Shown one piece after another: positions 9,870-63,280 of a stretch of DNA of 64,000 nt. The notes under the pieces were generated by a model that did no database searches, was not told the DNA's origin, and worked only from the letters and a program-made list of their open reading frames with translations. The stretch is from contig JACPLB010000001.1 in the NCBI GenBank assembly GCA_016186705.1, forward strand, positions 11,106 to 75,105, in the 5' to 3' direction. Origin of the DNA: Candidatus Kaiserbacteria bacterium. Its GTDB lineage: Bacteria; Patescibacteriota; Minisyncoccia; Phycocordibacterales; JABMNX01. Made by a program: the position numbers and the translations under genes. Within the stretch, counting starts at the first letter, position 1. Every line of letters begins with the position of its first letter.

Positions 9870-10138
9870 CGCTACTCCGCATAGTGCTCGCGTCTCTGTT
9901 TTTTTCAAGCGTTTTCTTTTCCCCCTGGGTTATAACGGTCCTTTTTGCGTGCATGCTTCTCATTGTCTCTTCCGGATACGAAATTATTTTTGGCGGGCTT
10001 ATGCTCGATCTTCTCTACGGTGTCGCCGTTCCGGCGTACGCCGGCGTGCCGCTCCTCTTCACTGTCTTTTTTTGCATCCTTTTCGTCGCGAGCTTTTATA
10101 TAAAAAAGCACCTCATGTTTTATCACAATCGCGTATAG
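9866..10138 (+). CDS. mreD: MreD-like small polytopic membrane protein (unusually short, 90 aa)
   Basis: Hydrophobic 90-aa ORF in the canonical mreD position between mreC and PBP2. Confidence 0.5.
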   Translation: MTLLRIVLASLFFSSVFFSPWVITVLFACMLLIVSSGYEIIFGGLMLDLLYGVAVPAYAGVPLLFTVFFCILFVASFYIKKHLMFYHNRV

Positions 10139-10166
10139 ACGTTTTCAAAAATGCTACAATAGCGGA

Positions 10167-11876
10167 GTGAACTTTCGCCGAATCAAACATTTTCTTCGCC
10201 GTCTTTTCTCGCGAAGGAAGGACCGTGAAATCAATCCGGATGAGATTTTTCTTGACGCAAGCAATCTTCCGGCTTTTGACCAACATCAATTTGAAGGGCG
10301 TCTTGAGCGTCCGATTGCCAAGCGTACTCATTTCCTCGTCGCCGCAGTGTTTCTTTTTCTGCTCCTTCTCTATGCCGGACGTGTCGGTTTTCTTCAGACG
10401 TACAGAGGCGAAGCATTCGCGCGTCTCAGCGAGAGTAATCGCCTCACGCACTCGATTATCTTTGCCGACCGCGGGGTCTTGTATGATCGGACAGGGAAGG
10501 AGCTTGCCTGGAATGTCGCGGGCACGGACGATGATTTTGCATTGCGCCGTTATTATAGGGATGAGGGGCTCTCGCACGCGATAGGGTACGTCGGCTACCC
10601 GCTTAAGGATGTTGCCGGAGTGTATTACCAGAATGCGTACATTGGCAGAGGCGGCGCGGAGTCTTTTTTTGACGGGCGGCTTTCGGGTGACAACGGACTC
10701 AAAATCGTCGAGATTGACGCGCTTCAAAAGGTAACGTCGGAGAGCGTCGTGCGTCCGCCGCGAGACGGAGAAAATATAACGCTCTCGGTTGACGCGTCTT
10801 TAAGTTCCGCTCTTTTTACTCTTCTGAAACGTCGAGCGGAAGAGTCTGGTTTTGTCGGCGGCGCGGGGGTCGTTGTGGATATTTCAAATGGAGAAATTAT
10901 CGCACTTGCGAGTTATCCGGAGTACGATTCACAGACGCTCACCGACGGGGAGTCCGGCGAGCGCATCCAATCGTACGTTGAGGACAGTCGAAAGCCCTTT
11001 TTAAACCGCATTGTCTCGGGTCTCTATACGCCCGGCTCCATCATCAAGCCGATTATCGCCATCGGTGCGCTTGAAGAAGGTGTTATTACTCCGGAAAAAG
11101 AAATTTTAAGCACAGGTTCTATACGTGTTCCGCACCCCTACATTGAGGATGCTTTTTCGATTTTTGTTGACTGGAAGGCGCACGGGTACGTTGACATGCG
11201 CCGGGCGCTCGCGGTGTCTTCAAATGTGTACTTCTACGAGGTCGGTGGCGGTTTTGAGAACCAAAAAGGAATCGGCATTGAAGGCATCAACCGATACGCA
11301 CGCATGTTCGGACTCGGTGAGACGAGTAGCTCTCCGTTTGAAGGGGAAAGTATCGGCGTTATCCCAAACCCGCGTTGGAAGGAAGAAACATTTAATGGTG
11401 ACGAGTGGCGCATCGGAGATACGTACAATACTTCCATCGGACAGTACGGTTTCCAGGTAACGCCGATGCAAATGGCGCTCGCCATCGGTGCCATTGCAAA
11501 CGGAGGCACGTTGTTTACCCCGATTCTCGAGAAGGGGACTTCTGCCGAAAAGAAGGTATTGCCGATTAACGCCCGCAACACGGAAGTTGTCCGCGAAGGC
11601 ATGCGTCTCGGCGTGCGTGAAGGAACCGCACAAGCACTCTCGGTGTCGTTCGTTGATGTTGCCGCGAAGACGGGCACGGCGGAACTCGGCACCGTGAAGC
11701 AATTTGTCAATTCATGGGTGGTGGGATTTTATCCGTACGAGAACCCCCGGTATGCGTTTGCGGTCATTATGGAACGCGGTCCGGTCAAAAATCTTGTCGG
11801 CGCCGCGTCAGTCATGCGCGAGTACCTTGAGTGGATTCACGCACACGCGCCAGAGTATCTTTCTCCTGTCAATTGA
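10167..11876 (+). CDS. mrdA: Penicillin-binding protein 2 (elongasome transpeptidase)
   Basis: 569 aa with a TM anchor, SIIKP (SxxK), SSN and KTGTA motifs. GTG start. Confidence 0.8.
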   Translation: MNFRRIKHFLRRLFSRRKDREINPDEIFLDASNLPAFDQHQFEGRLERPIAKRTHFLVAAVFLFLLLLYAGRVGFLQTYRGEAFARLSESNRLTHSIIFADRGVLYDRTGKELAWNVAGTDDDFALRRYYRDEGLSHAIGYVGYPLKDVAGVYYQNAYIGRGGAESFFDGRLSGDNGLKIVEIDALQKVTSESVVRPPRDGENITLSVDASLSSALFTLLKRRAEESGFVGGAGVVVDISNGEIIALASYPEYDSQTLTDGESGERIQSYVEDSRKPFLNRIVSGLYTPGSIIKPIIAIGALEEGVITPEKEILSTGSIRVPHPYIEDAFSIFVDWKAHGYVDMRRALAVSSNVYFYEVGGGFENQKGIGIEGINRYARMFGLGETSSSPFEGESIGVIPNPRWKEETFNGDEWRIGDTYNTSIGQYGFQVTPMQMALAIGAIANGGTLFTPILEKGTSAEKKVLPINARNTEVVREGMRLGVREGTAQALSVSFVDVAAKTGTAELGTVKQFVNSWVVGFYPYENPRYAFAVIMERGPVKNLVGAASVMREYLEWIHAHAPEYLSPVN

Positions 11877-20220: not shown

Positions 20221-20622
20221 ATGAGCAGGGGTAATTCTCATCCAAACTTAGTAGTCTTAGCTGTGTATAAATCGCATATCAATAAAGGTATGTGGAAGGG
20301 TTTTTGTGCACCTTATGGTGTCACTACTCAAGCAACAACATGTGAGGAAGCTAAAACTCACCTCGAGGAGTTAGTTGAACTATACGAAGAAGGATTGAAG
20401 AAATACAATTACCCTAAACATCTAGTATTCCAAGAATTACAAGATGTCGAAGATAATAAGGTGCTCAAGCTAGTTTGGAAAGAGGTGACTAGAACATTGG
20501 GACAAAAGATGAAGGAGGAACGGAATTTCATTGAGTTTACAAAACAAAGCAACGAGGGAAGTTTAAAACTTGACGGCGGTATCGTATCTTTTTATCAGCC
20601 CAGTTTTGTAATGCAAACATAA
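20221..20622 (+). CDS. HicB-like (UPF0150) antitoxin-domain protein
   Basis: GMWKGFCAPYGVTTQATTCEEAKTHLEELVELYEE matches the HicB N-terminal pattern (G..a.cPdlPGc.tqGdT.EEA..n..EAI.LyLE). AT-rich context. Confidence 0.55.
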   Translation: MSRGNSHPNLVVLAVYKSHINKGMWKGFCAPYGVTTQATTCEEAKTHLEELVELYEEGLKKYNYPKHLVFQELQDVEDNKVLKLVWKEVTRTLGQKMKEERNFIEFTKQSNEGSLKLDGGIVSFYQPSFVMQT

Positions 20623-20623
20623 T

Positions 20624-20869
20624 GTGGCTGTTCCGACAAATATCAAGTTTAAGGATTATGTAAAAGTTGTTAAGTTGATTGCAGCGCGGAAATTTGATTC
20701 ATTCTCTTATATTAAGAAACGAGGCTCTGCACGCCGTTTTGATTTTATAAAAAACGAAAAACCACTTATGCAAGTAGTGCACGAGGAAAAGTATATATAT
20801 TCAAAGGATTTTAAGCAGACATTAGAGAAACTAGAAGTAACCGAGGAAGAATTTAGAAGTTATTTTTAG
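20624..20869 (+). CDS. HicA-like (YcfA-type) mRNA-interferase toxin candidate
   Basis: 81 aa. K..D..K.L...GF......GSARRF and VVHEEKYIYSKDFKQTLEKLEVTEEEF resemble the HicA GSH..F and vPvH.gkdl..gtl.sIlkqagl..eeF segments. It starts 2 nt after the HicB-like stop. Confidence 0.45.
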   Translation: MAVPTNIKFKDYVKVVKLIAARKFDSFSYIKKRGSARRFDFIKNEKPLMQVVHEEKYIYSKDFKQTLEKLEVTEEEFRSYF

Positions 20870-32238: not shown

Positions 32239-33600
32239 TTAGACACTTTCTTTCTCGGCGCCTCTAAAATCACTCTTCTCGATAGAAAGGAAGGTCGCTT
32301 TCTGCTCGTCAAAGTAGAGCTCGATTTTTCCGGTCGGTCCGTTTCGATGTTTTTCAACGAGAATTTCGGCAATGTTCGGGCGCTCTGAATTTTCGTTCAT
32401 CTTGTCGTCGCGGTGAATGAACATGACAACGTCCGCGTCCTGTTCAATGGAGCCGGAGTCGCGGAGGTCAGAGAGGCGCGGACGGCCACGGCGCTGTTCA
32501 ACCGCTCGGGAGAGCTGGGAGAGCGCAAGGACGGGGGTGTCGAGCTCTCGCGCCATGCCTTTAAGCGCTCGCGAAATTTCGGTCACTTGCTGAACCATTG
32601 AGTCGGACTGCCTGTTGTGCGTCGGCAAAATAAGCTGGAGGTAGTCAACGATGATGAGACCGAGGTCTTTCTCGTGTTTCAGGCGGCGCGCCACGGAGCG
32701 CATCTGAAGCACGTTGTTTGACGCTTTGTCGTCAATGTAAATCGGCGCTTGGGAGAGGGTGTGAAGCGCCGCCTGGAGCTTGTCAAACTCGTCTTGGGTC
32801 GTGAGTTTCCCCGTGCGGAGCTTCCAGGCGTTTACGTAGGATTGCGCGGCAAGCATGCGGTCAACGAGCTGTTGAGCGCTCATTTCAAGCGAGAAGATGC
32901 CAACGGGCGTCTTGTGGTGCACTGCGGCTTGCCGCGCGATATCAAGCGCAAGCGACGTTTTTCCCATTGACGGACGGGCGGCGAGAATAATGAGGTCTGA
33001 CTTCTGGAATCCCGCGAGGAGGTTGTCGAGCTCGCGAAAGCCGCTCTTGATGCCGCGAAGTTCGTCTTTAGATTGGTGGAGCCGTTCGAGCCGCTCCCAT
33101 GCTTCCGAGAGCGTGTCTTTCAGCGCGATGAATTTCTGGAGGGTAGGGGAGTTTGTAACTTCAAGTATTCTTGACTGCGCCGAGTCAAGCACGTGCTCGA
33201 TGTCGCTGTCTTCCTCGTATCCCAGTTCGGAGATGTTGTCCGCCGCCGAGATGAGGTTGCGCATCATTGATTTTTTCTGCACAATTTCCGCGTAGTGTTT
33301 GATGTTTGCCGCGGACGGAACAAAGTGCACAAGCTCCGAGAGATACGCGCCGCCGCCGATTTGTTCAAGCTGTTTTTTCTCTTTGAGTTTGGTTGAGAGC
33401 GAGAGGATGTCAATCGGCTCCGTTTTCTCGAGAAGTTCAAGCATGGAGCCGTAAATGACGCGGTGCTTTTCGCTGTAAAAAGAGTCCGGTTTTACTATCT
33501 CAATGATTTCATACATCACTTCGGGCTTCAGCATAATGGAGCCGAGGAGCGCTTTTTCGGCGTCGATGCTTTGCGGAGGAATGCGGAGGTCGCTTGCCAT
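32239..33600 (-). CDS. dnaB: Replicative DNA helicase DnaB
   Basis: 453 aa with the N-terminal DnaB domain and Walker A (ARPSMGKTSLAL) plus RecA-like motifs. Confidence 0.9.
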   Translation of the reverse strand: MASDLRIPPQSIDAEKALLGSIMLKPEVMYEIIEIVKPDSFYSEKHRVIYGSMLELLEKTEPIDILSLSTKLKEKKQLEQIGGGAYLSELVHFVPSAANIKHYAEIVQKKSMMRNLISAADNISELGYEEDSDIEHVLDSAQSRILEVTNSPTLQKFIALKDTLSEAWERLERLHQSKDELRGIKSGFRELDNLLAGFQKSDLIILAARPSMGKTSLALDIARQAAVHHKTPVGIFSLEMSAQQLVDRMLAAQSYVNAWKLRTGKLTTQDEFDKLQAALHTLSQAPIYIDDKASNNVLQMRSVARRLKHEKDLGLIIVDYLQLILPTHNRQSDSMVQQVTEISRALKGMARELDTPVLALSQLSRAVEQRRGRPRLSDLRDSGSIEQDADVVMFIHRDDKMNENSERPNIAEILVEKHRNGPTGKIELYFDEQKATFLSIEKSDFRGAEKESV

Positions 33601-33696
33601 CCGAGCATTGTATCACAATGAAAATCACAGAGAATCTGGACACCGTGAGTATCATGTGTCTAGCGTGGGGACACCGTCTTCTTATTAGTTAGTTTT

Positions 33697-34629
33697 CTAA
33701 CTAATCCTTATAATTTGTTTACTAAATGTCGAATGAATATCTATATTTCCCGTGCCTTTTACAGCTTTTCCTATAACGTAAGATCCATCAATATTTTTTA
33801 TAACATTTTCAACTACATTTGAAGGTACGCTCAAAACAAAACCAACCCCGCAATTAAAAGTTCTGTACATTTCTTTGTCAGAAATGCCTCTAGAGTAGAG
33901 TTCATAGAATATATTTTGCGGCTTTCTTAAACCGTCTATAATCAAGTCCGTGTCTTTTGAAACATCCTGCAATTTAGTGAATGCTCCGCCGGTCAAGTGC
34001 ATCATTCCGTGGACTGGATATGTTTCGCATATATTCAACACCTCATCCAGATAAATTTTCGTTGGTTCTACAAATTCTTTCCTGAACTCATTTCCAAAAA
34101 CTTTCCTGACTTTAGTAAATCCGTTTGAATGTAAACCACCACTTTTAATACCAATAAGTACATCTCCATCATGTATCGCATTTAATTGAGGGTGTTTTAT
34201 AAATCCTGATACTGTCATGCTAATATCAAAACTTTTAGAAAAATTATGCACTGAAGTCTCACCTCCTGTTATTACAATCTTTCTCTTTAAACACTCCTTT
34301 GCAAGCGTCTCAATAATAAAAAGAATGATTTCGTGATTATCTTCTGGCAATACGATATGGTTTTGGAGTTTATACGGGTACGCCTTTACAAGCGCAAGAT
34401 CGTTTAGATTCATAGCGAGCGCATCAAGTACTGCGTTTTTGTACGTCTTTTCCCTCCAATGATATGCTGCTTTAGTGCCTATGCCGTCCGTGTGGTCAAC
34501 TTCTGTATAGTTGAATTTCCTCTCAAAAATTGGATATATCCCTCTGGTTATTTTTAAATATTGAGAATTCCAGGTCTTTTCTATAACGTTAAGAATCTGT
34601 TTCTTATACGGCTTACTAGTTTCATACAT
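33697..34629 (-). CDS. PurM-like (AIR synthase superfamily) protein; AT-rich relative to neighbours
   Basis: DGIGTKAAY, ITGGETS and HGMMHLTGGAF motifs. GC content is visibly lower than flanking dnaB/cysS. Confidence 0.6.
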   Translation of the reverse strand: MYETSKPYKKQILNVIEKTWNSQYLKITRGIYPIFERKFNYTEVDHTDGIGTKAAYHWREKTYKNAVLDALAMNLNDLALVKAYPYKLQNHIVLPEDNHEIILFIIETLAKECLKRKIVITGGETSVHNFSKSFDISMTVSGFIKHPQLNAIHDGDVLIGIKSGGLHSNGFTKVRKVFGNEFRKEFVEPTKIYLDEVLNICETYPVHGMMHLTGGAFTKLQDVSKDTDLIIDGLRKPQNIFYELYSRGISDKEMYRTFNCGVGFVLSVPSNVVENVIKNIDGSYVIGKAVKGTGNIDIHSTFSKQIIRIS

Positions 34630-34650
34630 ATAGAGAATAATGAAATTCCT

Positions 34651-36102
34651 TTATTTTTTGGTCAGTTCAGAACCTTCTTCCGTGTCTTTAATGTCGTATC
34701 CTTCTTTGGCGATTTTCTCCCGAAGGAGGTCCGCTGTCTTCCAATCCTTCTCTTCGCGCGCCGATTCGCGCTCTTTGACAAGCTCCTGCACTTCTCGGGG
34801 AGCTTCTTTAACCTCAACTTTCTTCGTCTCTCCGGCAAGCATCCTTTTCATCTGGCGGTGCGATTCTATGAAGCCGATACCTAATACGCGGTTCATGTCT
34901 AAAATCGTAGCGCGCTTGTCTCTTTTTTCTACAGCATTATCTTCAATGAGTTCAAAGAGAAGCGCAATAGCTTTCGGCGTATCAAGGTCGTCATTGACAA
35001 ATCTCTCAAACCGCTCCTGATATGACTTCACTACTACTCCATTGCTTGCGCCAAGGTCGAGAAATTGCTTGTGAAGCTTCACGAGAGCACTGTACGCTCC
35101 TTGAAGCGCCTCCCAGGTAAAGTTTAGCTGTGTGCGGTAGTGTCCCGTGAGGAGCCAGTAGCGGTACGCGAATGGAGGAAATCCGCGGTCGGCGAGGTGA
35201 TAGAGGTAAACAGTATTGCCGATAGATTTTGAAATCTTTTTTCCTTCAATGGTGAGAAACGCGCTGTGGAGCCAGTAATTTACGAACGGCTTTCCAGTGA
35301 GCGCTTCCGTCTGTGCGATTTCATTGTTGTGATGGACGGGGATATGATCCATTCCGCCGGTATGGATATCAAAATACTTGCCGAGATACTCTGTCGACAT
35401 CGCGCTGCATTCGATATGCCAACCGGGGAATCCGACGCCCCACGGGCTGTCCCATCCAAGTTTCTTTCCGGTTGAGGATTCTTCCGTTGAGAATTTCCAT
35501 AGTGCAAAGTCGCGCTCGTTGCGCTTACGTTTTCCTCCCTTAAGGCGCGAGACCCCGGTGTTCAGCTCTTTCGGCGTTCCTCCGAGCGCTCCGTATGTCT
35601 TAAACACTCCGGTGTCAAAGTACACGCCATCTTTGAGAATGTAGGCGTAGCCCTTTTCTTCAAGAGTTTTAATGAAAGCGATTTGCCCCTCAATGTGTTC
35701 ACTCGCTCGCGGAAAGGCGAGCGGCGTCTTGATGTTGAGGTCGCCTAGGTCCTTCTTGAACATCTTCGCGTACTTGGTTCCGACCTTTTTCATTTCCGCG
35801 AGTGTAACCGGCAATCCTTCCCGCCGGAGCGCGAGGAGCATTTTATCGTCGCCGGCATCCTCGTCCGAGGTGAGATGCCCGACGTCGGTAATATTGATAA
35901 CGTGCTTCACTGTGTAGCCGTTGTACTCAAGCGTCCTCCGGAGGATGTCGGAGAACACATACGGGCGGAGATTTCCTATATGGGCGCGGTCATACACCGT
36001 CGGCCCGCAACTGTACATACGAACGGAATCCGGCTTTATTGCCTGAAATTCGTCTTTCTTTTTTGAAAGCGTATTGAAGAGATACAGCGGAGAGCGTTTC
36101 AT
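34651..36102 (-). CDS. cysS: Cysteinyl-tRNA synthetase
   Basis: CGPTVYDRAHIGN (HIGH) and KMSKSIGN motifs; the start is the internal ATG (MKRSPLYLFNT). Confidence 0.9.
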   Translation of the reverse strand: MKRSPLYLFNTLSKKKDEFQAIKPDSVRMYSCGPTVYDRAHIGNLRPYVFSDILRRTLEYNGYTVKHVINITDVGHLTSDEDAGDDKMLLALRREGLPVTLAEMKKVGTKYAKMFKKDLGDLNIKTPLAFPRASEHIEGQIAFIKTLEEKGYAYILKDGVYFDTGVFKTYGALGGTPKELNTGVSRLKGGKRKRNERDFALWKFSTEESSTGKKLGWDSPWGVGFPGWHIECSAMSTEYLGKYFDIHTGGMDHIPVHHNNEIAQTEALTGKPFVNYWLHSAFLTIEGKKISKSIGNTVYLYHLADRGFPPFAYRYWLLTGHYRTQLNFTWEALQGAYSALVKLHKQFLDLGASNGVVVKSYQERFERFVNDDLDTPKAIALLFELIEDNAVEKRDKRATILDMNRVLGIGFIESHRQMKRMLAGETKKVEVKEAPREVQELVKERESAREEKDWKTADLLREKIAKEGYDIKDTEEGSELTKK

Positions 36103-36162
36103 ACGCGTCCCGCCGGCTCGTGTGCCTTGTTTAAACAGAGAAAGAAAGTGAAAGTCCATACA

Positions 36163-40786: not shown

Positions 40787-41488
40787 ATGAATCTATCTCA
40801 GAAAAAAGAAGGGGAGGCGCTTCGCTGTAAAATCAATCGAAAGAAATTCCCGCAGAACAGTCATGACGGGGAAATCGCCGAAAGGGTAGGGAGGATAGCG
40901 TCGGAGTTCACGCAAGGATTTGAAGTGCTCCAAAAATATGACCTTGCGGCGACCTTTTTCGGCTCCGCCCGTTGTTCTTTGGGAAGCGCTCTCTATGAGG
41001 ATGCTTCAAAGCTCGCGTATCGCCTCTCACGCACTGGATTTACGATTATCACGGGGGGCGCCGCCGGAGTCATGGAGGCGGCGAACAAAGGAGCTCACGA
41101 CGCCGGAGGGGATTCCGTCGGTCTTAATATAACGCTTCCGGAAGAGCAGTCGGGAAATGATTACACGACAGACCGCCACGATTTCCACTACTTTTTTACG
41201 AGAAAAGTCATGCTTACGTTCGCTTCTGAAGTGTATATTTATTTCCCCGGAGGGTTCGGGACACTCGATGAATTCTTTGAGATAGCAACCCTTATTCAGA
41301 CAAAGAAGATCGAACCCATTCCGATAATCCTCATAGGAGAGGAGTACTGGAGACCGCTTGTGAAGTGGATTGAAGAAGAGCTCCTTAAGAAACACAAGAC
41401 GGTCTCTAAAGAGGATACGCGCATCTATACTCTGGTTGATTCGGTTGACGAGGCGTATAATGAAATTGTCAAACAAGTGTGCGAATAG
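40787..41488 (+). CDS. LOG-family protein (TIGR00730, cytokinin riboside 5'-monophosphate phosphoribohydrolase-like)
   Basis: ITGGAAGVMEAANKGA and PGGFGTLDEFFE motifs. Confidence 0.75.
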   Translation: MNLSQKKEGEALRCKINRKKFPQNSHDGEIAERVGRIASEFTQGFEVLQKYDLAATFFGSARCSLGSALYEDASKLAYRLSRTGFTIITGGAAGVMEAANKGAHDAGGDSVGLNITLPEEQSGNDYTTDRHDFHYFFTRKVMLTFASEVYIYFPGGFGTLDEFFEIATLIQTKKIEPIPIILIGEEYWRPLVKWIEEELLKKHKTVSKEDTRIYTLVDSVDEAYNEIVKQVCE

Positions 41489-54302: not shown

Positions 54303-55019
54303 TTATTCAGTAAAGACTTTTTTCAGAATACCGCTTTTTTCTATGTCTCTACCGGTCCCCCTCGCAACAATTTCCCCGCGAACCAGCACGTATGCCCTGT
54401 GTGCTATTTCGAGCAACGTCTTAAGATTATGTTCGACAACAAGGATGGTTGTCTTTCTGCGTTCGTTAATTTCCTTTATTTTTGCAAAAACCTGCTTAAC
54501 CAATTTGGGCGAAAGACCAAGAGTCGGCTCATCAAGGAGTAGTACCTTGGGGTCTGTCATTAACCCCCGAGCTAATACGAGCATTTGCTGTTGTCCTCCT
54601 GAAAGGGTTTTTGCTGAAGCATTGAGCTTGGTCTTTAAATCCGGGAAAATATCCAGTACCTCCTCAATGCGGCGATTCCTTTCCTTTTTGTTGTGAATGA
54701 TATAACCTCCTATTTCTAAATTTTCTTTAACGGAAAGTCGCGTAAAGACCTGTCTTCCCTGCGGCACATAGGAAATCCCACGCTGTACCATTTCATGCGG
54801 AATCGGCACCACCTCTGTTTCATGCCACTCTACCCGGCCTCTGCTAGGACTCGCCAATCCGAAGATTGATTTAATGATAGTGGATTTGCCGGCGCCGTTA
54901 GGACCCATAAGAGCCACAATTTCCCCCTCATCAATCTGAATTGTCGCGTTGTCAAGAGCTAGAACTCCTCCATAATGTACAGAAGCGTTTTCTAACTTGA
55001 GTAGAATTTCTTTTTGCAT
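54303..55019 (-). CDS. livF: Branched-chain amino acid ABC transporter ATP-binding protein (LivF-like)
   Basis: Walker A GPNGAGKST, LSGGQQQ and the DEPTLGLSP D-loop. Confidence 0.8.
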   Translation of the reverse strand: MQKEILLKLENASVHYGGVLALDNATIQIDEGEIVALMGPNGAGKSTIIKSIFGLASPSRGRVEWHETEVVPIPHEMVQRGISYVPQGRQVFTRLSVKENLEIGGYIIHNKKERNRRIEEVLDIFPDLKTKLNASAKTLSGGQQQMLVLARGLMTDPKVLLLDEPTLGLSPKLVKQVFAKIKEINERRKTTILVVEHNLKTLLEIAHRAYVLVRGEIVARGTGRDIEKSGILKKVFTE

Positions 55020-55104
55020 TCTCTTTATCTTACGCTACATTGTCAAAAATAAAAACTCTGTACGGGCGCAGAGTTTTTATTTTTAAATCTCTATAAGACC
55101 CTAA

Positions 55105-56268
55105 TTATTTTTTATATTCAACAAACTTTCCGCTTTTTATTACAAACAAACCAACCGCTGTGTTTTCTGCTGCATGATTGTTGTTGAATTTCACTATGCC
55201 ATTTGGTGTTGTAAAGCTATTTTTCTCAATATAAGTTGCGATTTCCGCTTTAGAACTGACTTTTGAAACAGCTTCCGCTAAAACATAAACCGCATCATAC
55301 GCCCTGTTAGCAGACTTTGTTGGTTCCTGCCCGTATCTGGCTTTGAATCTTTTAGTGAACTCATCCGTTGTGACATTCCAATCAAGGACGATAATGTTTT
55401 CAAGTAAATTTTTATTGATGTCCTTCATAGTTAGCGCGTCATTGATGCCATTATGAGTTATCAATTTAGGGTGAAAATTCAAATCTTGGGCTTGTCTCAG
55501 AAAGGTTAGATGATCCGCCGAAATCATATCCATAAATACCAAATCCACCTTGGCTTGCTTTAATTTCAAAATAGTAGTCTTGAAATCGGCTTGGCCTATG
55601 TTTTTATAACTTTCATCGATCACTTCCCCTTTACCAGCAACTTCAACTATAGGTTTTAGAACTCGGGTTATTTCTTGTCCAAAAACAGATTCAAAACGCA
55701 CTATCGCAAACTTTGTGTATTTTTCAGTCTGTAAATAATCTCTAAATGCCTCAAGAATCTTTTCAAAGTCAGTCATCATTATAAAACTTTTTTCATTGGT
55801 ATCAAATGCTCCAGGGATACGAGGACTTGAAGGAACAAGAAGCACCGTGTCGCCATTTTTCGCGAGAGGAAAAACAGCTTGAGTCACAAAATCAAAATTG
55901 CTTCCAATTATTCCGTCAACGTTATCAATACCGGTGAATTTATGATATAGACCAACGGCCACTTTAGGATCGGTTTGATCGTCCTCTATAATCACTTGCA
56001 CCATTCTACCTTTGATACCTCCTTTGGCGTTTATTTCTTCAACTGCTAAATCAATGCCCATCTTTGACATTTCCCCAAACGTTGCCGCAACGCCTGTCAA
56101 GGAAATTAGTCCACCAATCTTAATTGGTTCTTGAGAAGTTGATATACTATTTACTTTACTAGACTGCCAGTACCAAATGCCGCCAAAAAGAACCGCTATA
56201 ACAATAATCCAGATGCCAATTCTATGATTCATATTATTTCTTATTATACGCTTTATATAATGAAACAA
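55105..56268 (-). CDS. Liv-type periplasmic substrate-binding protein (paralog A)
   Basis: Signal anchor and IKIGGLISLTGVAATFGE...GIDLAVEEINAKGGIKG, the type I PBP/LivK signature. AT-rich gene. Confidence 0.75.
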   Translation of the reverse strand: MFHYIKRIIRNNMNHRIGIWIIVIAVLFGGIWYWQSSKVNSISTSQEPIKIGGLISLTGVAATFGEMSKMGIDLAVEEINAKGGIKGRMVQVIIEDDQTDPKVAVGLYHKFTGIDNVDGIIGSNFDFVTQAVFPLAKNGDTVLLVPSSPRIPGAFDTNEKSFIMMTDFEKILEAFRDYLQTEKYTKFAIVRFESVFGQEITRVLKPIVEVAGKGEVIDESYKNIGQADFKTTILKLKQAKVDLVFMDMISADHLTFLRQAQDLNFHPKLITHNGINDALTMKDINKNLLENIIVLDWNVTTDEFTKRFKARYGQEPTKSANRAYDAVYVLAEAVSKVSSKAEIATYIEKNSFTTPNGIVKFNNNHAAENTAVGLFVIKSGKFVEYKK

Positions 56269-56272
56269 AAAC

Positions 56273-57028
56273 TTACTCTCCTAAATATGCTTCAATAACC
56301 TCTTTACGCGAGAGAACTTCGTGAGATTTCCCTTCTGCAAGAAGTTTCCCTGCGTCAAGCACTATAAGATGATCAGAAAGATGCTTTATAATTTCCATGT
56401 CGTGTTCAATGAGAACGACCGTCTTCCCTTCACTTCTAAGTTTCTGCACGATACCGGCAACGGTCTTTTTCATGCTTGGAAATAACCCCGCGAACGGTTC
56501 ATCCAGAAGCATCGTATCACTTCCCATTGCAAGAGCGCGTGCAATTTCAAGAAGTTTTCTTTGTCCGTAAGAAAGATTCTCGGCGTTTTCATTTCGTTTA
56601 TCCCAAAGCCCAACTTGTTCAAGTACAACCTTGGCTTGTCGCAGATGAAAATTGGTATGATATTCAAAGAGAGAAAGAAATACGCCTCGCTCCGTAAGCA
56701 CGACTAGCACGTTATCAAGCACGCTCATTTGCTGAAATAAACGTACCTGTTGGAAAGTTCTGGTCATTCCGTACGTTCGTACGTCGTACGGCCGTATGCG
56801 TGAAAGCTTCATCTCGCTTACAAGCACCGCGCCGCTGTCAGACGGAACCATTCCTGTGAGCAGATTGACAAGCGTCGTTTTCCCGGACCCATTAGGACCG
56901 ACAATCCCCGTCACCTTTCCTTTTTCAATGCGAAGCGAAAGGTGGTCAACGGCATTGACGCCATTGAAATGCTTGTGAAGTTTTTGTGTTTGAAGGATTG
57001 ACACACTTACCATTGTTTTAATACTCAA
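56273..57028 (-). CDS. livG: Branched-chain amino acid ABC transporter ATP-binding protein (LivG-like)
   Basis: Walker A GPNGSGKTT, LSYGQRK and the LivG-type C-terminal extension. Confidence 0.8.
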   Translation of the reverse strand: MSIKTMVSVSILQTQKLHKHFNGVNAVDHLSLRIEKGKVTGIVGPNGSGKTTLVNLLTGMVPSDSGAVLVSEMKLSRIRPYDVRTYGMTRTFQQVRLFQQMSVLDNVLVVLTERGVFLSLFEYHTNFHLRQAKVVLEQVGLWDKRNENAENLSYGQRKLLEIARALAMGSDTMLLDEPFAGLFPSMKKTVAGIVQKLRSEGKTVVLIEHDMEIIKHLSDHLIVLDAGKLLAEGKSHEVLSRKEVIEAYLGE

Positions 57029-58190
57029 CCTTTACAAACCCTCCACTTCTCACTACCACCATTTGGAAAGCGTCTTCGGGAGTAATAACGAAACCTTTTT
57101 CATTGAATGTTATCTCCGGAAGTGAAGCTCCTTTAAAACTTCTCGTCTTTGCGAGCTCTTCTCTAATGGTAGCCCTGTCGGTGTTCCCCGCTCTTTCAAT
57201 CGCGTCAACGAGTACACGAACCGCATCGTATGACGTTACCGCTGACGGGAATAATGATTTTCGTTCGTATTTTTCAAAAAATAACTTCTCAAAGTCTTCG
57301 TATTCCTCTGTGTTATTCACGGGAGTGCTGAAATACAAATCTTCAAGAGCCTCGGGACACTGCCCGAGGACTGCTTTGCTTCCAGCGGATTCCGTTGAAA
57401 GAACTAACCCGTTGAAACCAATTTCCTTAGCTTGTTTTATAAAGGCACATTGATTGTAGTCACTAACGACTACGAAGATCGCTTGCGGATTTTTCTGGTT
57501 AATCTTTGCAATACTGGTCCTAAAATCAAGAGAGAGAGGATTGCCAAAATCAATATCATCAGTAATAGCTACTCCATATTGGGGAGCTTGTTTTGTTATG
57601 TAGTCGGCAGTAAACTTCCAAAATCCTCCATTTGTAAGCCGTAAAACCGCAATATTTGTAATGTCGCGAGCTTGAGCGAAACGGAGCAATTCAAGAATAC
57701 CAACTCGGTTATCATACCAGGTTGAAAAAAGATTCTCCCCTAAGCCGTCTGTCTCAACCGTGTCTGTAATGTCTGCGCCAATGGTTGGCACGCCGTGTTC
57801 TTCTATAAGAGGGAGAATGGCAATTGCCGGCTCATCCCATTGAGGACCAATGATTCCTACGACTTTATCAATATTAATAAGTTTTTGAGCAATTGTTCCG
57901 GCATTTTTCATTTTATCAAGCGAAAGGTCCTCTGGGATGAATTGAATTTCTCTACCCAACACCCCTCCATTTCTATTAATTTCTGCAATTGCCAATTCAG
58001 CTCCTTTCAATTCTTCCTCACCTATTGCCGCGCCTATGCCTGTCAAAGCGAAAATGCCTCCAATTTTAATGGGATTCTCTGAAGAGGGTTCTGAACTAAA
58101 ATTATTAAAAGCAAGAATAGCAATGATTATGAGTACTATGATAATTCCTGTAATCCATTTCACTTCTTTACTCATGGTTATTCCGCTCAC
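57018..58190 (-). CDS. Liv-type periplasmic substrate-binding protein (paralog B)
   Basis: IKIGGIFALTGIGAAIGEEELKGAELAIAEINRNGGVLG; AT-rich gene. Confidence 0.75.
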   Translation of the reverse strand: MSGITMSKEVKWITGIIIVLIIIAILAFNNFSSEPSSENPIKIGGIFALTGIGAAIGEEELKGAELAIAEINRNGGVLGREIQFIPEDLSLDKMKNAGTIAQKLINIDKVVGIIGPQWDEPAIAILPLIEEHGVPTIGADITDTVETDGLGENLFSTWYDNRVGILELLRFAQARDITNIAVLRLTNGGFWKFTADYITKQAPQYGVAITDDIDFGNPLSLDFRTSIAKINQKNPQAIFVVVSDYNQCAFIKQAKEIGFNGLVLSTESAGSKAVLGQCPEALEDLYFSTPVNNTEEYEDFEKLFFEKYERKSLFPSAVTSYDAVRVLVDAIERAGNTDRATIREELAKTRSFKGASLPEITFNEKGFVITPEDAFQMVVVRSGGFVKVEY

Positions 58191-59275
58191 TTAATAAACT
58201 CACCATCTTGAATTTTAAAAATAGCAGTTGGAAGAATTGTCCTGTTATCTTTTGTCCACTCTATAGCGCCGCTCACTCCCTCATAAGATTCCAGGTTCTC
58301 CATTGTTTTTATAATCTTTTCTCTTGGACCCTCTTGTCTTAACAGATCCAAAAGTAGAATAGTTGCGTCGTACGCTTGTCCCGCAGGAATACCAGGTTTA
58401 ATTCCATATTCTCGTTCAAACTTTTCTATAAAATTATTGCTGTATGATTCGGGAGTAATAAATTCTAACCCTTCTATATAATCTTTTGCTTCTGTTGCAA
58501 GATAAGAATCAACCTCAATGCTGTATAATTTCCCTTCATAGCCAAATTCATTGAGAACCTTGGTGGCGTGTATAAATTGATAATACGTTCCTAAAAATAC
58601 CGCTTCCGGCTTCGTATTAATAATTTTTATAATTGGGACTCTTACATCCGTGTCATCCGTTTGTGTAAGTTCTTTAGTTGATATTATTCCGCCTAATTCC
58701 TTAAATCGGCTTGCAAATGAATCAGATACTTCATTTTCCCAACTGTCATGGGTACCAAATACCGCAACAGTTCGAACTCCCTGATCAAAAACGTATTCCG
58801 CTATTTTATATGCTTCAAGGGACGGGTCCATCCAGACCATCAAGGGGTTTCGTGGGTTGTCGCGATTTATAATAGGAGCGTAGCTTGGAGTAATGACTGG
58901 AATATTCGCACTTGCTATATTTGAAGCAACGGCTGCAACTTCAGCTTGAAAGAGAGGTCCTACAACTCCGTCCACCTTATCCAATGTAATTAACTTTTGA
59001 AAGACAGAGATTGCCGTCTTTGGGTCTCCTTGAGAATCTTCAATGATTGTTTCCACTCCTATATCATAAGTTTCTTTAAAATCCTTCACCGCAAGATCAA
59101 ATCCTTTTTTCGCGTTCTCACCCCACCCGGCAGCGTCTCCAGAAAGAATAAAAATAGCTCCGATTCTGATATTACCGTCTACCGTTGATTTATTATTTAA
59201 GTAGAAAATAAACCCAAGGATAATTAAAATAATAACTGTCGTTGCGATTATCCACTTTGTTTTTATTGACATCAT
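58187..59275 (-). CDS. Liv-type periplasmic substrate-binding protein (paralog C)
   Basis: IRIGAIFILSGDAAGWGENAKKGFDLAV; AT-rich gene. Confidence 0.7.
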   Translation of the reverse strand: MMSIKTKWIIATTVIILIILGFIFYLNNKSTVDGNIRIGAIFILSGDAAGWGENAKKGFDLAVKDFKETYDIGVETIIEDSQGDPKTAISVFQKLITLDKVDGVVGPLFQAEVAAVASNIASANIPVITPSYAPIINRDNPRNPLMVWMDPSLEAYKIAEYVFDQGVRTVAVFGTHDSWENEVSDSFASRFKELGGIISTKELTQTDDTDVRVPIIKIINTKPEAVFLGTYYQFIHATKVLNEFGYEGKLYSIEVDSYLATEAKDYIEGLEFITPESYSNNFIEKFEREYGIKPGIPAGQAYDATILLLDLLRQEGPREKIIKTMENLESYEGVSGAIEWTKDNRTILPTAIFKIQDGEFIK

Positions 59276-59329
59276 TATATGTAAGGGTAGTAATCCGTAT
59301 TAAACAGAAACAACCTTAAGAAGTCAATC

Positions 59330-60196
59330 TTACAGCCGGTACCTGCCCAATAAGCCCTGCGGGCGGTATAGCATCAGCACAACAAGAAGGAGGCCGTATA
59401 CCACTTGCCGCATTTGAGCTGCAATGTCTGTCGGAAAACCAACAAACCGCAGTATTTCCGGCAAGAGAATGAGAATGACCGCGCCGAGAAGCGCCCCTCG
59501 ATGATTTGAAAGTCCGCCGAGAATAATAATAGAGAGAATGAAAACCGATTCAAAAAGAGTGAAAGAAGAGGGGTCAATAAACGTAATGTAAGAAGCAAAG
59601 AGAGAGCCAGCCACAGCAGCCATTCCCGCCCCAATAACAAAAACAGTTAGTTTGAAGTATGTCGTGCGGTATCCAAATACTTGCAGTGCTTCCTCGTCAT
59701 CCCGAATCGCTCGAATGACGCGCCCGAATGAAGAAGAGGTAATGAAATGAGAAGTGTAATAAATTGCGACAAGAAAGACGAGCGAGAGGAGCAAAAACTC
59801 GCTATTTGAATTAAAGTGAAATCCAAAAAGAGACGGCTTATCAATTCCGGGAATCCCAAGCGGACCGCGCGTCAGACTCTGCCAGTTCAAAAAAATCGAG
59901 TATACAATCACATTAAATCCGAAGGAAGCAAGGGCGAAGTAGTCATCATTAAATCGAGACAGAACGAGTCCGATAAGAAGACCCACCAGCGCGGTGAGCG
60001 CAATACTTACAAGAACGGTGAAAAAGAAATTCACCTCAAAGGAGGTCGCCAGAATAGCCGTTGTGTACGCGCCAACGCCGAAAAAGGCGGCGTGGGTGAC
60101 CGAGAGAAGTCCGGTGTAGCCGACGACGAGGTCAAGACTTATCGCAAGGATTGCGTAGATTGTTATAAGAATGCCCAGATGGACGAGGTATTCCAT
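59330..60196 (-). CDS. livM: Branched-chain amino acid ABC transporter permease (LivM-like)
   Basis: Polytopic, LivM-type permease pattern. Confidence 0.75.
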   Translation of the reverse strand: MEYLVHLGILITIYAILAISLDLVVGYTGLLSVTHAAFFGVGAYTTAILATSFEVNFFFTVLVSIALTALVGLLIGLVLSRFNDDYFALASFGFNVIVYSIFLNWQSLTRGPLGIPGIDKPSLFGFHFNSNSEFLLLSLVFLVAIYYTSHFITSSSFGRVIRAIRDDEEALQVFGYRTTYFKLTVFVIGAGMAAVAGSLFASYITFIDPSSFTLFESVFILSIIILGGLSNHRGALLGAVILILLPEILRFVGFPTDIAAQMRQVVYGLLLVVLMLYRPQGLLGRYRL

Positions 60197-60199
60197 ATA

Positions 60200-61069
60200 T
60201 TATTTTCTATTGAAAATCCCTTGCGGTCGAAAAATAAGGAAAATGATGAGTAAGGTAAATGCAATGGCGTCTTTCCACTCTCCCGAGATATACCAGATGC
60301 CAAAATTTTCTACCGTCCCGAGAAGAAGGGCTCCCATAACACCTCCAAAAACGTTTCCCACGCCGCCGACAATTGCGGCGATAACTCCTTTAAGGAGAAG
60401 AGAAAAACCCATTGTTGGAGTGATTCCTGTGTCAAAACCAACAAGAATGCCCGCAAGTCCGGCGATAGCCGAACCGATGAAAAATACCCTGCCGATGACT
60501 TTCTCGGTATCAATGCCGACAATACGCGCCACTTCTTCATCATCGCTGATTGCCCGAATCGCTTTGCCGAACATGGTTTTATACAGAAACCACGCAAGGA
60601 CGGACATAATGATGAGAGCAAGTACAAAAATGGCAATCTGGACGCTTGTCACGACTCCCCCGCCGATATGAAAAACGCCTCTCCCGAACAGGTCACTCGG
60701 CAAGGTCTGAAATTGGCTGGTAAAAAAAATGGCAATGACGGCTTGAAGGGCGGTAAAGACTCCGAGAGAGGCAATCAGCATAACGGTATTGGACGCTTTG
60801 CGCCCACGAAGCTTTTTGTATACGAATTTCTCAATGACAAATCCCAGTATTCCGGCAACTACCACGCCCGCAATAACCCCGACGAGCGTGGGGAAATTGT
60901 GCACTTTGGCGAGGTAAAACACGGTATAGGCGCCCACGGCAGCGAGCGCACCATAACCGATATCAAAAAACTTTGCCGTGGAGAAAATCAAGTTAAAACC
61001 CAAAGCCACCATGGCATAAATCGAGCCGGCAATGAGACTGTTTGCTATCAGTTGCGGGAGAATGTCCAT
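60200..61069 (-). CDS. livH: Branched-chain amino acid ABC transporter permease (LivH-like)
   Basis: Polytopic permease upstream of livM. Confidence 0.75.
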   Translation of the reverse strand: MDILPQLIANSLIAGSIYAMVALGFNLIFSTAKFFDIGYGALAAVGAYTVFYLAKVHNFPTLVGVIAGVVVAGILGFVIEKFVYKKLRGRKASNTVMLIASLGVFTALQAVIAIFFTSQFQTLPSDLFGRGVFHIGGGVVTSVQIAIFVLALIIMSVLAWFLYKTMFGKAIRAISDDEEVARIVGIDTEKVIGRVFFIGSAIAGLAGILVGFDTGITPTMGFSLLLKGVIAAIVGGVGNVFGGVMGALLLGTVENFGIWYISGEWKDAIAFTLLIIFLIFRPQGIFNRK

Positions 61070-61156
61070 TGCGATTTACGATACCTTATTCTTTTTCACT
61101 ATGCCAGATAAAAACCCCTAATAAAGGGGTTTTTATCTCATATAGCTGCGGAGTCA

Positions 61157-62281: not shown

Positions 62282-62382
62282 AATTGTTTAATATATAAAC
62301 GGCTAAAGCCAACAGACCGAGGTTCTTAAAAGTGTATTCCCCTCAATGCAAATGTCAACAGAGAAGGAGAAAGGCGTAATTA

Positions 62383-63150: not shown

Positions 63151-63280
63151 GCGTTTCCTTCGTTAAAACGACGACGAAATCGTCGTTTTAACTACATAAA
63201 ATAACCATATTTTACAACAAAAAGCAAGAGTGTCTGTCTTTTCTTTTGTCATTTCAGGATTACTCTATTACAATTTAATT

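What the first reader, a model, noticed from the sequence alone, without database searches (positions are those of the whole stretch)
33697..34629. Lone, compositionally deviant PurM-like gene in a genome context lacking other purine-biosynthesis genes
A 310-aa AIR-synthase-superfamily protein (DGIGTK, ITGGETS, HGMMHLTGGAF) sits between dnaB and cysS. Its DNA is markedly more AT-rich than its neighbours, and none of its usual pathway partners (purN, purF, purD etc.) is nearby. If the organism is a reduced CPR-type bacterium without de novo purine synthesis, this is either a horizontally acquired gene repurposed for another PurM-fold function (ThiL-, HypE-, SelD-like or an unknown ATP-dependent cyclo-ligase) or a remnant.
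Basis: partly seen in the sequence, partly recalled or inferred. Interest (0 to 1): 0.5.

Follow-up and report, generated by a model that had tools for sequence, protein, structure and literature searches.

The report
Horizontally inserted lone PurM-like gene
A Kaiserbacteria genome picked up, as a single AT-rich gene dropped between cysS and dnaB, a member of a highly conserved PurM (AIR synthetase)-like enzyme subfamily that is traded between ultra-small CPR bacteria and DPANN archaea; it keeps the full catalytic machinery, is never linked to purine-pathway genes, and its real job is unknown.

Summary
ORF 33697-34629(-) encodes a 310-aa AIRS/AIRS_C protein with 35.0% GC against 48.2% for the window. 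It sits between dnaB and cysS, and no other pur gene lies in the 64 kb.

It is not ThiL-, HypE- or SelD-like, and it is not a remnant. It belongs to a large, tightly conserved subfamily (>2,600 clusters at 90% identity) found in Patescibacteria and in DPANN archaea.

- **Ancestry:** the subfamily shares motifs with archaeal-type PurM. It keeps 36 PurM signature positions, including all proposed catalytic residues. Its N-terminal ~45 residues differ and lack the glycine-rich loop.
- **Scores and distance:** it falls below the NCBIfam purM cut-off. It is 26-34% identical to canonical PurMs, which are about 40% identical to each other across domains.
- **Transfer:** archaeal and bacterial members are as alike between domains (53%) as within them (55-57%).
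- **Insertion:** at least ten relatives' contigs, within a conserved S41-corA-cysS-dnaB-recR block, have cysS abutting dnaB with no such gene.
- **Linkage:** across 1.13 Mb around 80 homologues, pur genes appear once. The two CPR pur clusters examined carry a canonical bacterial PurM instead.

Most likely it is an active PurM-type ATP-dependent cyclo-ligase acquired horizontally. Its physiological role is unresolved. I rate it a new variant of a known kind, of moderate interest.

The parts
33697..34629 (-). 310-aa PurM-like (AIRS + AIRS_C) gene; member of the CPR/DPANN-specific subfamily; GC 35.0%
34495..34629 (-). Codons 1-45: family-specific N-terminal segment (MY..KPYK..TW..Y.), which stands where canonical PurM has Y..AGVD plus the glycine-rich G1 loop. 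Y2, K6, T19 and W20 are invariant only in the family.
34471..34488 (-). DGIGTK (residues 48-53), the PurM G2 loop; D48 = E. coli D65
   Evidence: PMC3261824, PMC2978367
34375..34404 (-). NDLALVKAYP (residues 76-85), the Dx4GAxP ATP/Mg motif with the Gly replaced; D77 = E. coli D94. It is followed by QNH (89-91) where canonical PurM has (L/V)DY.
   Evidence: PMC2978367
34252..34266 (-). GGETS (residues 122-126), the conserved GGET motif
34120..34131 (-). HSNG (residues 167-170); H167 = E. coli H190, N169 = P. abyssi N186
33985..33999 (-). HLTGG (residues 211-215); H211 = E. coli H247 = P. abyssi H239
33841..33858 (-). FNCGVG (residues 258-263), a PurM signature motif kept in the family
34630..34650 (-). 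21-bp spacer between the cysS stop and the PurM-like start. No promoter-like site here, so co-transcription with cysS is inferred.
33601..33696 (-). 96-bp spacer to dnaB, with a 6-bp-stem hairpin at 33656-33674. No flanking direct or inverted repeats that would mark a mobile element.
34651..36159 (-). cysS, upstream flank of the insertion. In relatives it abuts dnaB directly.
32239..33600 (-). dnaB, downstream flank of the insertion

Best explanation
The gene is a recently inserted, single-gene horizontal acquisition. It belongs to a distinct, strongly conserved PurM-like subfamily that shares motifs with archaeal-type AIR synthetase and circulates among CPR/Patescibacteria and DPANN archaea. 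Shown: the protein has the PurM two-domain fold and keeps every residue proposed for catalysis. Inferred mechanism: it works as a PurM-type ATP-dependent cyclo-ligase. ATP-Mg would be held by D48, D77 and E124; the carbonyl oxygen of a formyl or amide group on FGAM, or on a very FGAM-like ribonucleotide, would be phosphorylated; ring closure would be assisted by H167, N169 and H211. The lid over the ATP site differs: a family-specific N-terminus with invariant Y2, K6 and T19-W20 stands where the glycine-rich loop is, and there are two new histidines, H57 and H91. Also inferred: in this genome it acts as an accessory, stand-alone nucleotide-metabolism enzyme co-transcribed with cysS, and not as part of a resident pur operon. 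Its physiological substrate source is unknown.
For: - Fold and residues: Pfam AIRS + AIRS_C. AF2 model pLDDT 93.9. Foldseek top hits are all AIR synthetases, TM 0.75-0.85.
- Shared positions: 36 positions are conserved in both the family (116 sequences) and canonical PurM (37 sequences). They include E. coli D65, D94, H190 and H247 and P. abyssi N186 and H239 (PMC3261824).
- Distinct clade: NJ split of 166 against 37 sequences with bootstrap 100. TIGR00878 scores 166.6, below the 236.35 cut-off. Identity to canonical PurMs is 26-34%, while canonical bacterial and archaeal PurMs are about 40% identical to each other. Motifs are shared with archaeal-type PurM.
- Insertion: the S41-corA-cysS-dnaB-recR-L21-rmuC block is conserved in relatives. 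cysS abuts dnaB in at least ten contigs, and none of 80 loci has the gene. The AT-rich tract equals the ORF.
- Mobility: gene GC is below flank GC in most loci (mean -2.8%; 23 of 81 below -5%; 1 above +5%). Between-domain identity is 52.8%, against 55-57% within domains. The closest Kaiserbacteria homologue sits among toxin-antitoxin, Fic and transposase genes.
- No pathway linkage: pur genes occur in only 1 of 81 loci across 1.13 Mb, and no neighbour is conserved. The two CPR pur clusters examined carry a canonical PurM that is 42% identical to E. coli PurM and 24-25% identical to this protein.
Against: - No activity data exist for any member.
- The rest of this genome could not be examined, so a scattered but complete purine pathway that uses this gene is not excluded.
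- The near-complete conservation of PurM substrate motifs is what one expects of an ordinary AIR synthetase.
- One family member comes from Anstonellales, an order reported to have a complete purine pathway (PMC12892359).
- The canonical G1 loop, thought to help bind ATP, is missing, so full activity is not guaranteed.
- The tree is neighbour-joining only, and its internal nodes are unresolved.
Confidence: 0.5

Rival explanations
1. It is a true AIR synthetase (FGAM to AIR) serving as the PurM step of a complete but scattered de novo purine (and thiamine-precursor) pathway in this organism. On this view it was acquired horizontally, perhaps replacing a lost canonical purM.
For: All catalytic and PurM-signature residues are conserved. 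IMG annotates homologues as phosphoribosylformylglycinamidine cyclo-ligase. Between 7% and 32% of CPR genomes are reported to have the pathway (PMC11608272; bioRxiv 10.64898/2026.06.21.733656). One family locus (L069) has purD and large purL 8-10 kb away. Anstonellales, which carry the family (L072), are reported to have a complete pathway (PMC12892359).
Against: No pur gene lies in the 64-kb window or in 80 of the 81 family loci. The two CPR pur clusters examined use a canonical bacterial PurM next to purL, purD and purN. The family is further from all canonical PurMs than those are from each other and scores below the NCBIfam equivalog cut-off. Repeated single-gene transfer and retention fit poorly with a step that is useless without nine others.
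Confidence: 0.22
2. It is a neofunctionalised PurM paralogue that uses the same ATP-dependent amide activation and ring closure on a different, nucleotide-derived substrate. One example would be re-closing or processing damaged or salvaged purine ribonucleotides, working as a stand-alone sanitation or salvage enzyme.
For: The family is a distinct clade with a different N-terminal lid, two family-invariant new histidines (H57 and H91) and loss of the G1 loop. It is a lone, mobile, strongly conserved gene in lineages that live on scavenged nucleotides (PMC8204110). NUDIX hydrolase is the commonest immediate neighbour: 6 of 145 genes at +/-1 and 2 more at +/-2, in both bacterial and archaeal loci. 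UDG is adjacent in 3 archaeal loci.
Against: 36 PurM signature positions are unchanged, which argues for FGAM or something very like it. The NUDIX association is weak (about 10% of loci), involves dissimilar NUDIX proteins, and is partly due to shared ancestry. No fusion or operon points to another substrate. The fusions found (PurB-PurM, PurQ-PurM) involve canonical-type domains.
Confidence: 0.22
3. It is a vertically inherited, ordinary purM whose low GC merely reflects its amino-acid composition.
For: Gene GC tracks host GC across loci (r = 0.86, slope 0.77) and is mildly lower than the flanks on average. The query groups with another Kaiserbacteria-labelled protein, P0009 (bootstrap 79).
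Against: cysS abuts dnaB in at least ten relatives' contigs and none of 80 loci carries the gene. The deficit here is -13.3% GC, the second most extreme of 81 loci. A Kaiserbacteria homologue in a 50%-GC genome has 52% GC (L065). P0009 lies in a 33%-GC genome in an island of toxin-antitoxin and transposase genes, with no shared synteny.
Confidence: 0.03
4. It performs a ThiL-, HypE- or SelD-type function, or it is a decaying remnant.
For: It shares the PurM-superfamily fold. There are weak NCBIfam hits to thiL, hypE and selD (E = 1e-3 to 0.08).
Against: Those scores are 12-18 bits against cut-offs of 125-441. Structural matches to ThiL and HypE have lower TM scores and 13-18% identity. PurM-specific motifs (HSNG, PT.IY, FN.G.G) are intact. 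The ORF is intact and the family has mean column identity of 71% over 83 sequences.
Confidence: 0.03

Closest known systems
Archaeal-type AIR synthetase (PurM), e.g. Pyrococcus horikoshii / P. abyssi (PDB 9JZY, 9K00)
   Same: Best sequence match among solved structures (E = 8e-34) and best structural matches (TM up to 0.85). Shares GGET(A/S), H(I/L)TGGAFTKL, HSNG, PT.IY and FN.G.G. The mutated catalytic residues N186 and H239 are conserved as N169 and H211.
   Different: Only about 27-35% identical. The match begins at residue ~45; the N-terminal Y..AGVD helix and the GxGGYA glycine-rich loop are absent, with MY..KPYK..TW in their place. VDY becomes QNH, and H57 and H91 are new invariant histidines. 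The family gene is not in a purine-gene context.
Bacterial PurM (E. coli PurM, PDB 1CLI; NCBIfam TIGR00878), including the canonical PurM of CPR pur clusters
   Same: Same fold and same proposed catalytic residues, D65, D94, H190 and H247.
   Different: 28-30% identity to E. coli PurM and 24-25% to CPR canonical PurM. Scores below the TIGR00878 cut-off (166.6 against 236.35). About 35 residues shorter. Canonical CPR purM sits beside purL, purD and purN, and this gene never does.
Phage-borne lone purM (cyanophage auxiliary metabolic gene; PHROG 1207)
   Same: A purM carried without the rest of the pathway on a mobile genome. The query hits phrog_1207 at E = 6e-35.
   Different: Phage PurMs are canonical-type and about 30% identical, matching only from residue ~44 or with low identity. 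Their hosts supply the rest of the pathway. Only one 'viral' contig, L086 (532 kb, of doubtful viral nature), carries a family member.
Other PurM-superfamily enzymes (ThiL, HypE, SelD, PurL core)
   Same: Same superfamily fold and ATP-dependent phosphorylation chemistry.
   Different: 13-18% identity in structural alignments, far below the family cut-offs, and they lack the PurM-specific motifs that this protein keeps.

Membership tests
PurM / AIR synthetase (EC 6.3.3.1; TIGR00878) | Two-domain AIRS N-terminal plus AIRS_C fold | tested here: met
   Pfam PF00586 39.2 bits and PF02769 63.2 bits, both above cut-off. AF2 pLDDT 93.9. Foldseek TM 0.75-0.85 to AIR synthetases.
PurM / AIR synthetase (EC 6.3.3.1; TIGR00878) | Score at or above the curated equivalog cut-off of TIGR00878 | tested here: not met
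   166.6 bits against a cut-off of 236.35. The match covers residues 42-288 only.
PurM / AIR synthetase (EC 6.3.3.1; TIGR00878) | Proposed active-site residues (E. coli D65, D94, H190, H247; P. abyssi N186, H239) | tested here: met
   D48, D77, H167, H211 and N169 are invariant in the family (residue list from PMC3261824 and the PDB titles).
PurM / AIR synthetase (EC 6.3.3.1; TIGR00878) | N-terminal Y..AGVD motif and glycine-rich G1 loop (GGLGGFGA), thought to close over ATP | tested here: not met
   The family has MY..KPYK..TW...G.YP in that position. 21 of the 37 canonical sequences carry Y..AGVD, and none of the 166 on the family side do (PMC2978367).
PurM / AIR synthetase (EC 6.3.3.1; TIGR00878) | Dx4GAxP motif followed by the (L/V)DY acidic residue | tested here: inconclusive
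   D77, A83 and P85 are kept, but Gly is K/R/G and DY is NH in the query subtype. A second subtype of the family keeps the Asp (IDH).
PurM / AIR synthetase (EC 6.3.3.1; TIGR00878) | Genomic association with other pur genes, or presence of the pathway | tested here: not met
   No pur gene in the 64-kb window, and only 1 of 81 family loci has any. Whole-genome content could not be examined with these tools.
PurM / AIR synthetase (EC 6.3.3.1; TIGR00878) | Catalysis of FGAM + ATP to AIR + ADP + Pi | not testable with these tools
   Needs an enzyme assay or delta-purM complementation.
ThiL (TIGR01379) / HypE (TIGR02124) / SelD (TIGR00476) | Score at or above the family cut-off, and closest fold match | tested here: not met
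   18.2, 18.1 and 12.1 bits against cut-offs of 184, 252 and 125. Foldseek ranks them below all PurMs at 13-18% identity.
Anti-phage defence proteins (PADLOC) | Match to any PADLOC model | tested here: not met
   0 families at E <= 1.

The most novel reading that the evidence does not exclude
The CPR/DPANN PurM-like subfamily is not a purine-biosynthesis enzyme at all. On this reading it is a stand-alone, horizontally traded ATP-dependent ring-closing or amide-activating enzyme acting on a scavenged or damaged nucleotide-derived substrate. One example: PurM makes the C8-N9 bond of the purine ring, so re-closure of ring-opened formamido purine ribonucleotides would use the same chemistry. It might work alongside NUDIX-type sanitising enzymes, giving nucleotide-scavenging symbionts of both domains a shared salvage or repair trick.
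Probability: 0.22. Interest if true: 0.75.

Novelty: new variant of a known kind. Interest (0 to 1): 0.45.

Why it matters
[quoted passage not shown] A strongly conserved PurM-like gene that moves between the two domains as a single unit is therefore either an unexplained orphan step of purine synthesis or a new use of PurM chemistry. Automated pipelines label homologues inconsistently: 'purM' in IMG, and 'hypothetical' or 'AIR synthase-related' in NCBI. The first label can inflate purine-pathway completeness scores in metabolic reconstructions of these organisms. The family is small, models with high confidence, and could be assayed directly. It is also a clean marker of CPR-DPANN gene exchange.

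Tried and rejected
- **Conserved-neighbour search.** All-against-all BLAST clustering of about 1,300 ORFs from 81 loci found no partner; the best cluster (ABC ATPase) was in 10 loci. Pfam census of 145 first and 124 second neighbours gave only a weak NUDIX signal.
- **Rosetta-stone fusions.** PurB-PurM and PurQ-PurM fusions exist, but their PurM domains are canonical-type, so they say nothing about this family.
- **Viral origin.** Only one doubtful 532-kb 'viral' contig holds a family member. The phage purM genes are canonical.
- **Defence-system role.** No PADLOC hit.
- **Mobile-element scars.** No meaningful direct or inverted repeats flank the gene, and there is no convincing promoter or terminator.
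- **Walking along L069.** I tried to see whether a canonical purM lies beyond purL. The PurD of that contig is not in the protein collection, so I examined relatives' clusters instead.
- **AFDB50 fold search.** The library was unavailable.
- **Literature.** No paper in the searched library describes a PurM-like family specific to CPR or DPANN.
- **Domain calling by neighbour voting.** Too sparse for 29 loci. Archaeal origin was instead confirmed by adjacent aIF2-alpha genes in 6 loci.

Full report
**1. The observation**

The ORF at 33697-34629 on the minus strand is real. Pfam finds AIRS (PF00586, 39.2 bits) and AIRS_C (PF02769, 63.2 bits), both above their cut-offs.

The gene lies 21 bp downstream of cysS (34651-36159) and 96 bp upstream of dnaB (32239-33600), all three on the minus strand. 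This sits inside a housekeeping run: RmuC, L21, RecR, DnaB, [gene], CysRS, CorA, S41 peptidase, L9, L27.

Its composition is deviant on every measure I tried:
- GC is 35.0% against 48.2% for the window, and only 0.6% of 933-bp windows are as low.
- It is z = -3.36 against the window's other genes.
- GC3 is 0.325 against 0.534 +/- 0.088.
- The AT-rich tract coincides with the ORF to within about 30 bp.

tblastn with ten E. coli Pur proteins finds no other pur gene in the 64 kb. The same junction appears in four independent assemblies of other runs (L001-L004), so it is not a chimera.

**2. What the protein is**

The exact sequence is NCBI 'hypothetical protein HYW58_00285 [Candidatus Kaiserbacteria bacterium]'.

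Among NCBIfam models only purM (TIGR00878) matches well: 166.6 bits, E = 8e-49. That is below the curated cut-off of 236.35, and the match covers only residues 42-288. ThiL, HypE and SelD score 12-18 bits. Solved relatives are all AIR synthetases, the best being Pyrococcus (9JZY, E = 8e-34), and again only from residue ~45 onward.

An AlphaFold2 model built on 83 homologues is confident (pLDDT 93.9, pTM 0.91). Its best PDB matches are AIR synthetases (TM 0.75-0.85), with ThiL and HypE clearly behind.

The residues proposed as catalytic in E. coli PurM are D65, D94, H190 and H247 (PMC3261824). They correspond to D48, D77, H167 and H211. The two residues mutated in the P. abyssi structures, N186 and H239, correspond to N169 and H211. 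I derived this by counting along the alignments and allowing for the 13-residue offset of the crystallised chain.

I compared 116 family sequences with 37 canonical PurMs:
- 36 positions are conserved and identical in both groups. They include DG.GTK, the ND of Dx4GAxP, GGE, S.G.H.NG, PT..Y, H.TGG and F.N.G.G.
- Only four positions are conserved-but-different: I50/V, H57/A, H91/Y and C260/M.
- A handful are invariant only in the family: Y2, K6, T19, W20 and G54.

[quoted passage not shown] In its place is MY(D/N)PTKPYK..TW.TPY.

**3. The family**

The word-indexed search found 2,616 clusters at 90% identity with E <= 1e-3. The 120 best hits listed are about 310 aa and 54-63% identical to the query (apart from the query's own record), and the annotated ones come from Patescibacteria. 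The exhaustive search of 50%-identity representatives found full-length relatives, N-terminus included, down to about 35% identity. Below that, canonical PurMs match only from residue ~44. Mean column identity is 71% over 83 members.

A scan of one genome per GTDB species returned 80 loci. They come from Kaiser-, Adler-, Yanofsky-, Jorgensen-, Nealson-, Ryan-, Sung-, Wildermuth- and Berkelbacteria and other Patescibacteria. They also come from Woese-, Pace-, Nano- and Aenigmatarchaeota and Anstonellales. The archaeal nature of several contigs is confirmed by an adjacent aIF2-alpha gene in six loci.

In a neighbour-joining tree of 203 sequences, the split between the family plus its divergent relatives (166) and canonical PurMs (37, holding all 21 sequences with Y..AGVD) has bootstrap 100. 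Inside the family the tree is star-like.

Identity figures:
- archaeal against bacterial family members: mean 52.8%, maximum 65.2%;
- within archaea 55.3%, within bacteria 57.1%;
- family against any canonical PurM: 26-34%;
- E. coli PurM against archaeal-type canonical PurM: about 40%.

So the family is a separate lineage lying outside the span of orthologous PurMs, and it has crossed the domain boundary. It shares HITGGAFTKL and GGETAI with archaeal-type PurM. One subtype ('PYALIDH/GGETAI', common in DPANN) still keeps the Asp of canonical VDY. The query's subtype has QNH/GGETS. An archaeal origin is the likeliest, but that is an inference.

**4. Horizontal acquisition in this genome**

A metagenome scan with the window's CysRS returned 80 loci from relatives (37-51% CysRS identity). 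In at least ten contigs cysS is followed within about 40-150 bp by dnaB, within a more widely conserved block S41(-), corA, cysS, dnaB, recR, L21(-), rmuC(-). None of the 80 loci holds a PurM-like gene. A few relatives have unrelated single-gene inserts at the same junction.

Together with the gene-sized AT-rich tract, this shows a single-gene insertion in the window's lineage. No repeats or integrase mark the mechanism.

Across 81 family loci, the gene's GC is below that of its flanks on average (-2.8%). It is more than 5% lower in 23 loci and more than 5% higher in one. The window, at -13.3%, is the second most extreme.

The query's nearest relatives are P0002 and P0009 (bootstrap 79). P0009 lies in a 33%-GC genome among PhdYeFM/ParE and RelB/YafQ toxin-antitoxin pairs, a Fic gene and a transposase. 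Another Kaiserbacteria copy, L065, is only 51% identical and has host-like GC.

**5. Relation to purine synthesis**

In 1.13 Mb around 80 family genes there is no purF, purE, purK, purC, purB or purH. The purN hits are the Fmt formyltransferase. Only L069 (Wildermuthbacteria) has purD and the glutaminase end of a large purL, 8-10 kb from the family gene. One locus in 81 is roughly what chance would give.

I examined two contigs carrying close relatives of that PurD (L172, and L173 from an NCBI assembly). Their pur clusters contain large purL, purD, a formyltransferase and a 341-342-aa PurM. That PurM is 42% identical to E. coli PurM and only 24-25% identical to the query. So in the two CPR pur clusters examined, the PurM is a canonical bacterial type sitting inside the cluster, not a member of this family.

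The literature gives very different figures for how many CPR genomes have the pathway: 32% (PMC11608272) against 7% (bioRxiv 10.64898/2026.06.21.733656). Some DPANN orders that carry the family, such as Anstonellales, are reported to have complete pathways (PMC12892359). I could not survey whole genomes with these tools, and that is the main gap in this analysis.

**6. Neighbourhood hints**

No neighbour is conserved across the family. Among 145 immediately adjacent genes the commonest Pfam family is NUDIX, with six cases from both bacterial and archaeal loci. Two more NUDIX genes lie at the second position, and NUDIX does not appear in the top list for 124 second neighbours.

Uracil-DNA glycosylase is adjacent in three related archaeal loci. 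Four CPR loci place the gene between a radical-SAM gene and a LigB/Memo-like gene. These are weak leads, partly explained by shared ancestry. At most they suggest a nucleotide-sanitation or repair setting.

**7. Interpretation**

Shown:
- a PurM-fold protein with an intact PurM catalytic set;
- a member of a distinct CPR/DPANN subfamily;
- inserted as a single gene;
- not linked to pur genes.

Inferred: it is an active ATP-dependent cyclo-ligase acting on FGAM or something very similar, with a remodelled ATP lid, co-transcribed with cysS.

Unresolved: whether it supplies the PurM step of a scattered pathway, or has a stand-alone role on another substrate. The first is favoured by the unchanged substrate motifs. 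The second is favoured by its mobility, its lone status, its distance from all orthologous PurMs, the different N-terminus and the two new histidines.

The ThiL/HypE/SelD-like and 'remnant' readings are rejected.

**8. Novelty and score**

I found no paper in the searched library describing this subfamily. Databases call its members 'hypothetical', 'AIR synthase-related' or 'purM'. I class it as a new variant of a known kind.

A specialist would find the lone, inter-domain-mobile, highly conserved PurM-like gene moderately surprising, and it is directly testable. There is as yet no evidence of new chemistry, so interest is 0.45.

**Caveats**
- The tree is distance-based.
- Many taxon labels come from automated MAG records.
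- The neighbour statistics are small.
- No model coordinates were available to map the family-specific residues in three dimensions.

Noticed in passing
window 54303-64000: A liv-type ABC transporter region (LivF 54303-55019, LivG 56273-57028, LivM 59330-60196, LivH 60200-61069) is interleaved with five paralogous periplasmic-binding-protein genes. Two of them (55105-56268, GC 0.367; 58187-59275, GC 0.378) are as AT-rich and as codon-deviant as the PurM-like gene, which suggests further recent acquisitions. The LivF/G/H/M names are read from the translated sequences; only the two binding-protein genes were scanned against Pfam.
   Followed up: partly
window 20221-20869: Two small ORFs (133 and 81 aa; GC 0.38 and 0.33) form another AT-rich islet just after a murF-like gene (identified by reading the sequence). 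The larger one has no Pfam match.
   Followed up: partly
L177:3250-4335, L209:1793-4397, L211:6375-7435, L234:1028-1891: In a few relatives the cysS-dnaB junction holds other, unrelated single-gene inserts. The junction looks like a recurrent insertion site.
   Followed up: partly
L086 (IMGVR_UViG_3300049215_000771, 532,729 bp), family gene at 9968-10984: This contig is catalogued as viral. It carries a family member (43% identical) next to GluRS/GlnRS-type, MetRS and split HisRS genes, an HNH endonuclease and tRNA-Val. It is either a huge phage or giant virus with translation genes, or a small cellular genome mis-called as viral.
   Followed up: partly
L025, L044, L047, L056, L080, L082 (adjacent); L051, L058 (second neighbour): NUDIX hydrolase genes sit directly beside the PurM-like gene in 6 of 81 loci from both bacteria and archaea. 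NUDIX is the commonest Pfam family among immediate neighbours. UDG is adjacent in L056, L078 and L080.
   Followed up: partly
L062, L063, L069, L074: In four CPR loci the gene lies between a radical-SAM enzyme gene (which I read as AmmeMemoRadiSam-like) and a LigB/Memo-like gene.
   Followed up: no
L174:3091-8733 and L175: The closest Kaiserbacteria-labelled homologue (P0009) sits in an island with Fic, PhdYeFM/ParE and RelB/YafQ toxin-antitoxin pairs. In L175 a transposase is also present.
   Followed up: no
window 40787-41488 (+): A LOG / 'lysine decarboxylase'-family protein (PF03641), a family I recall as including nucleotide 5'-monophosphate nucleosidases. It is the only other nucleotide-metabolism gene I noticed in the window.
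   Followed up: no
L025 and L076 (contig CAYIAX010000005.1, 27667-48599 and 5303-26229): One contig carries two copies of the family gene about 22 kb apart.
   Followed up: no
P0267 (773 aa), P0259 (635 aa): Fusion proteins PurB-PurM and PurQ-PurM exist in the metagenomic protein set. Their PurM domains are canonical-type.
   Followed up: yes
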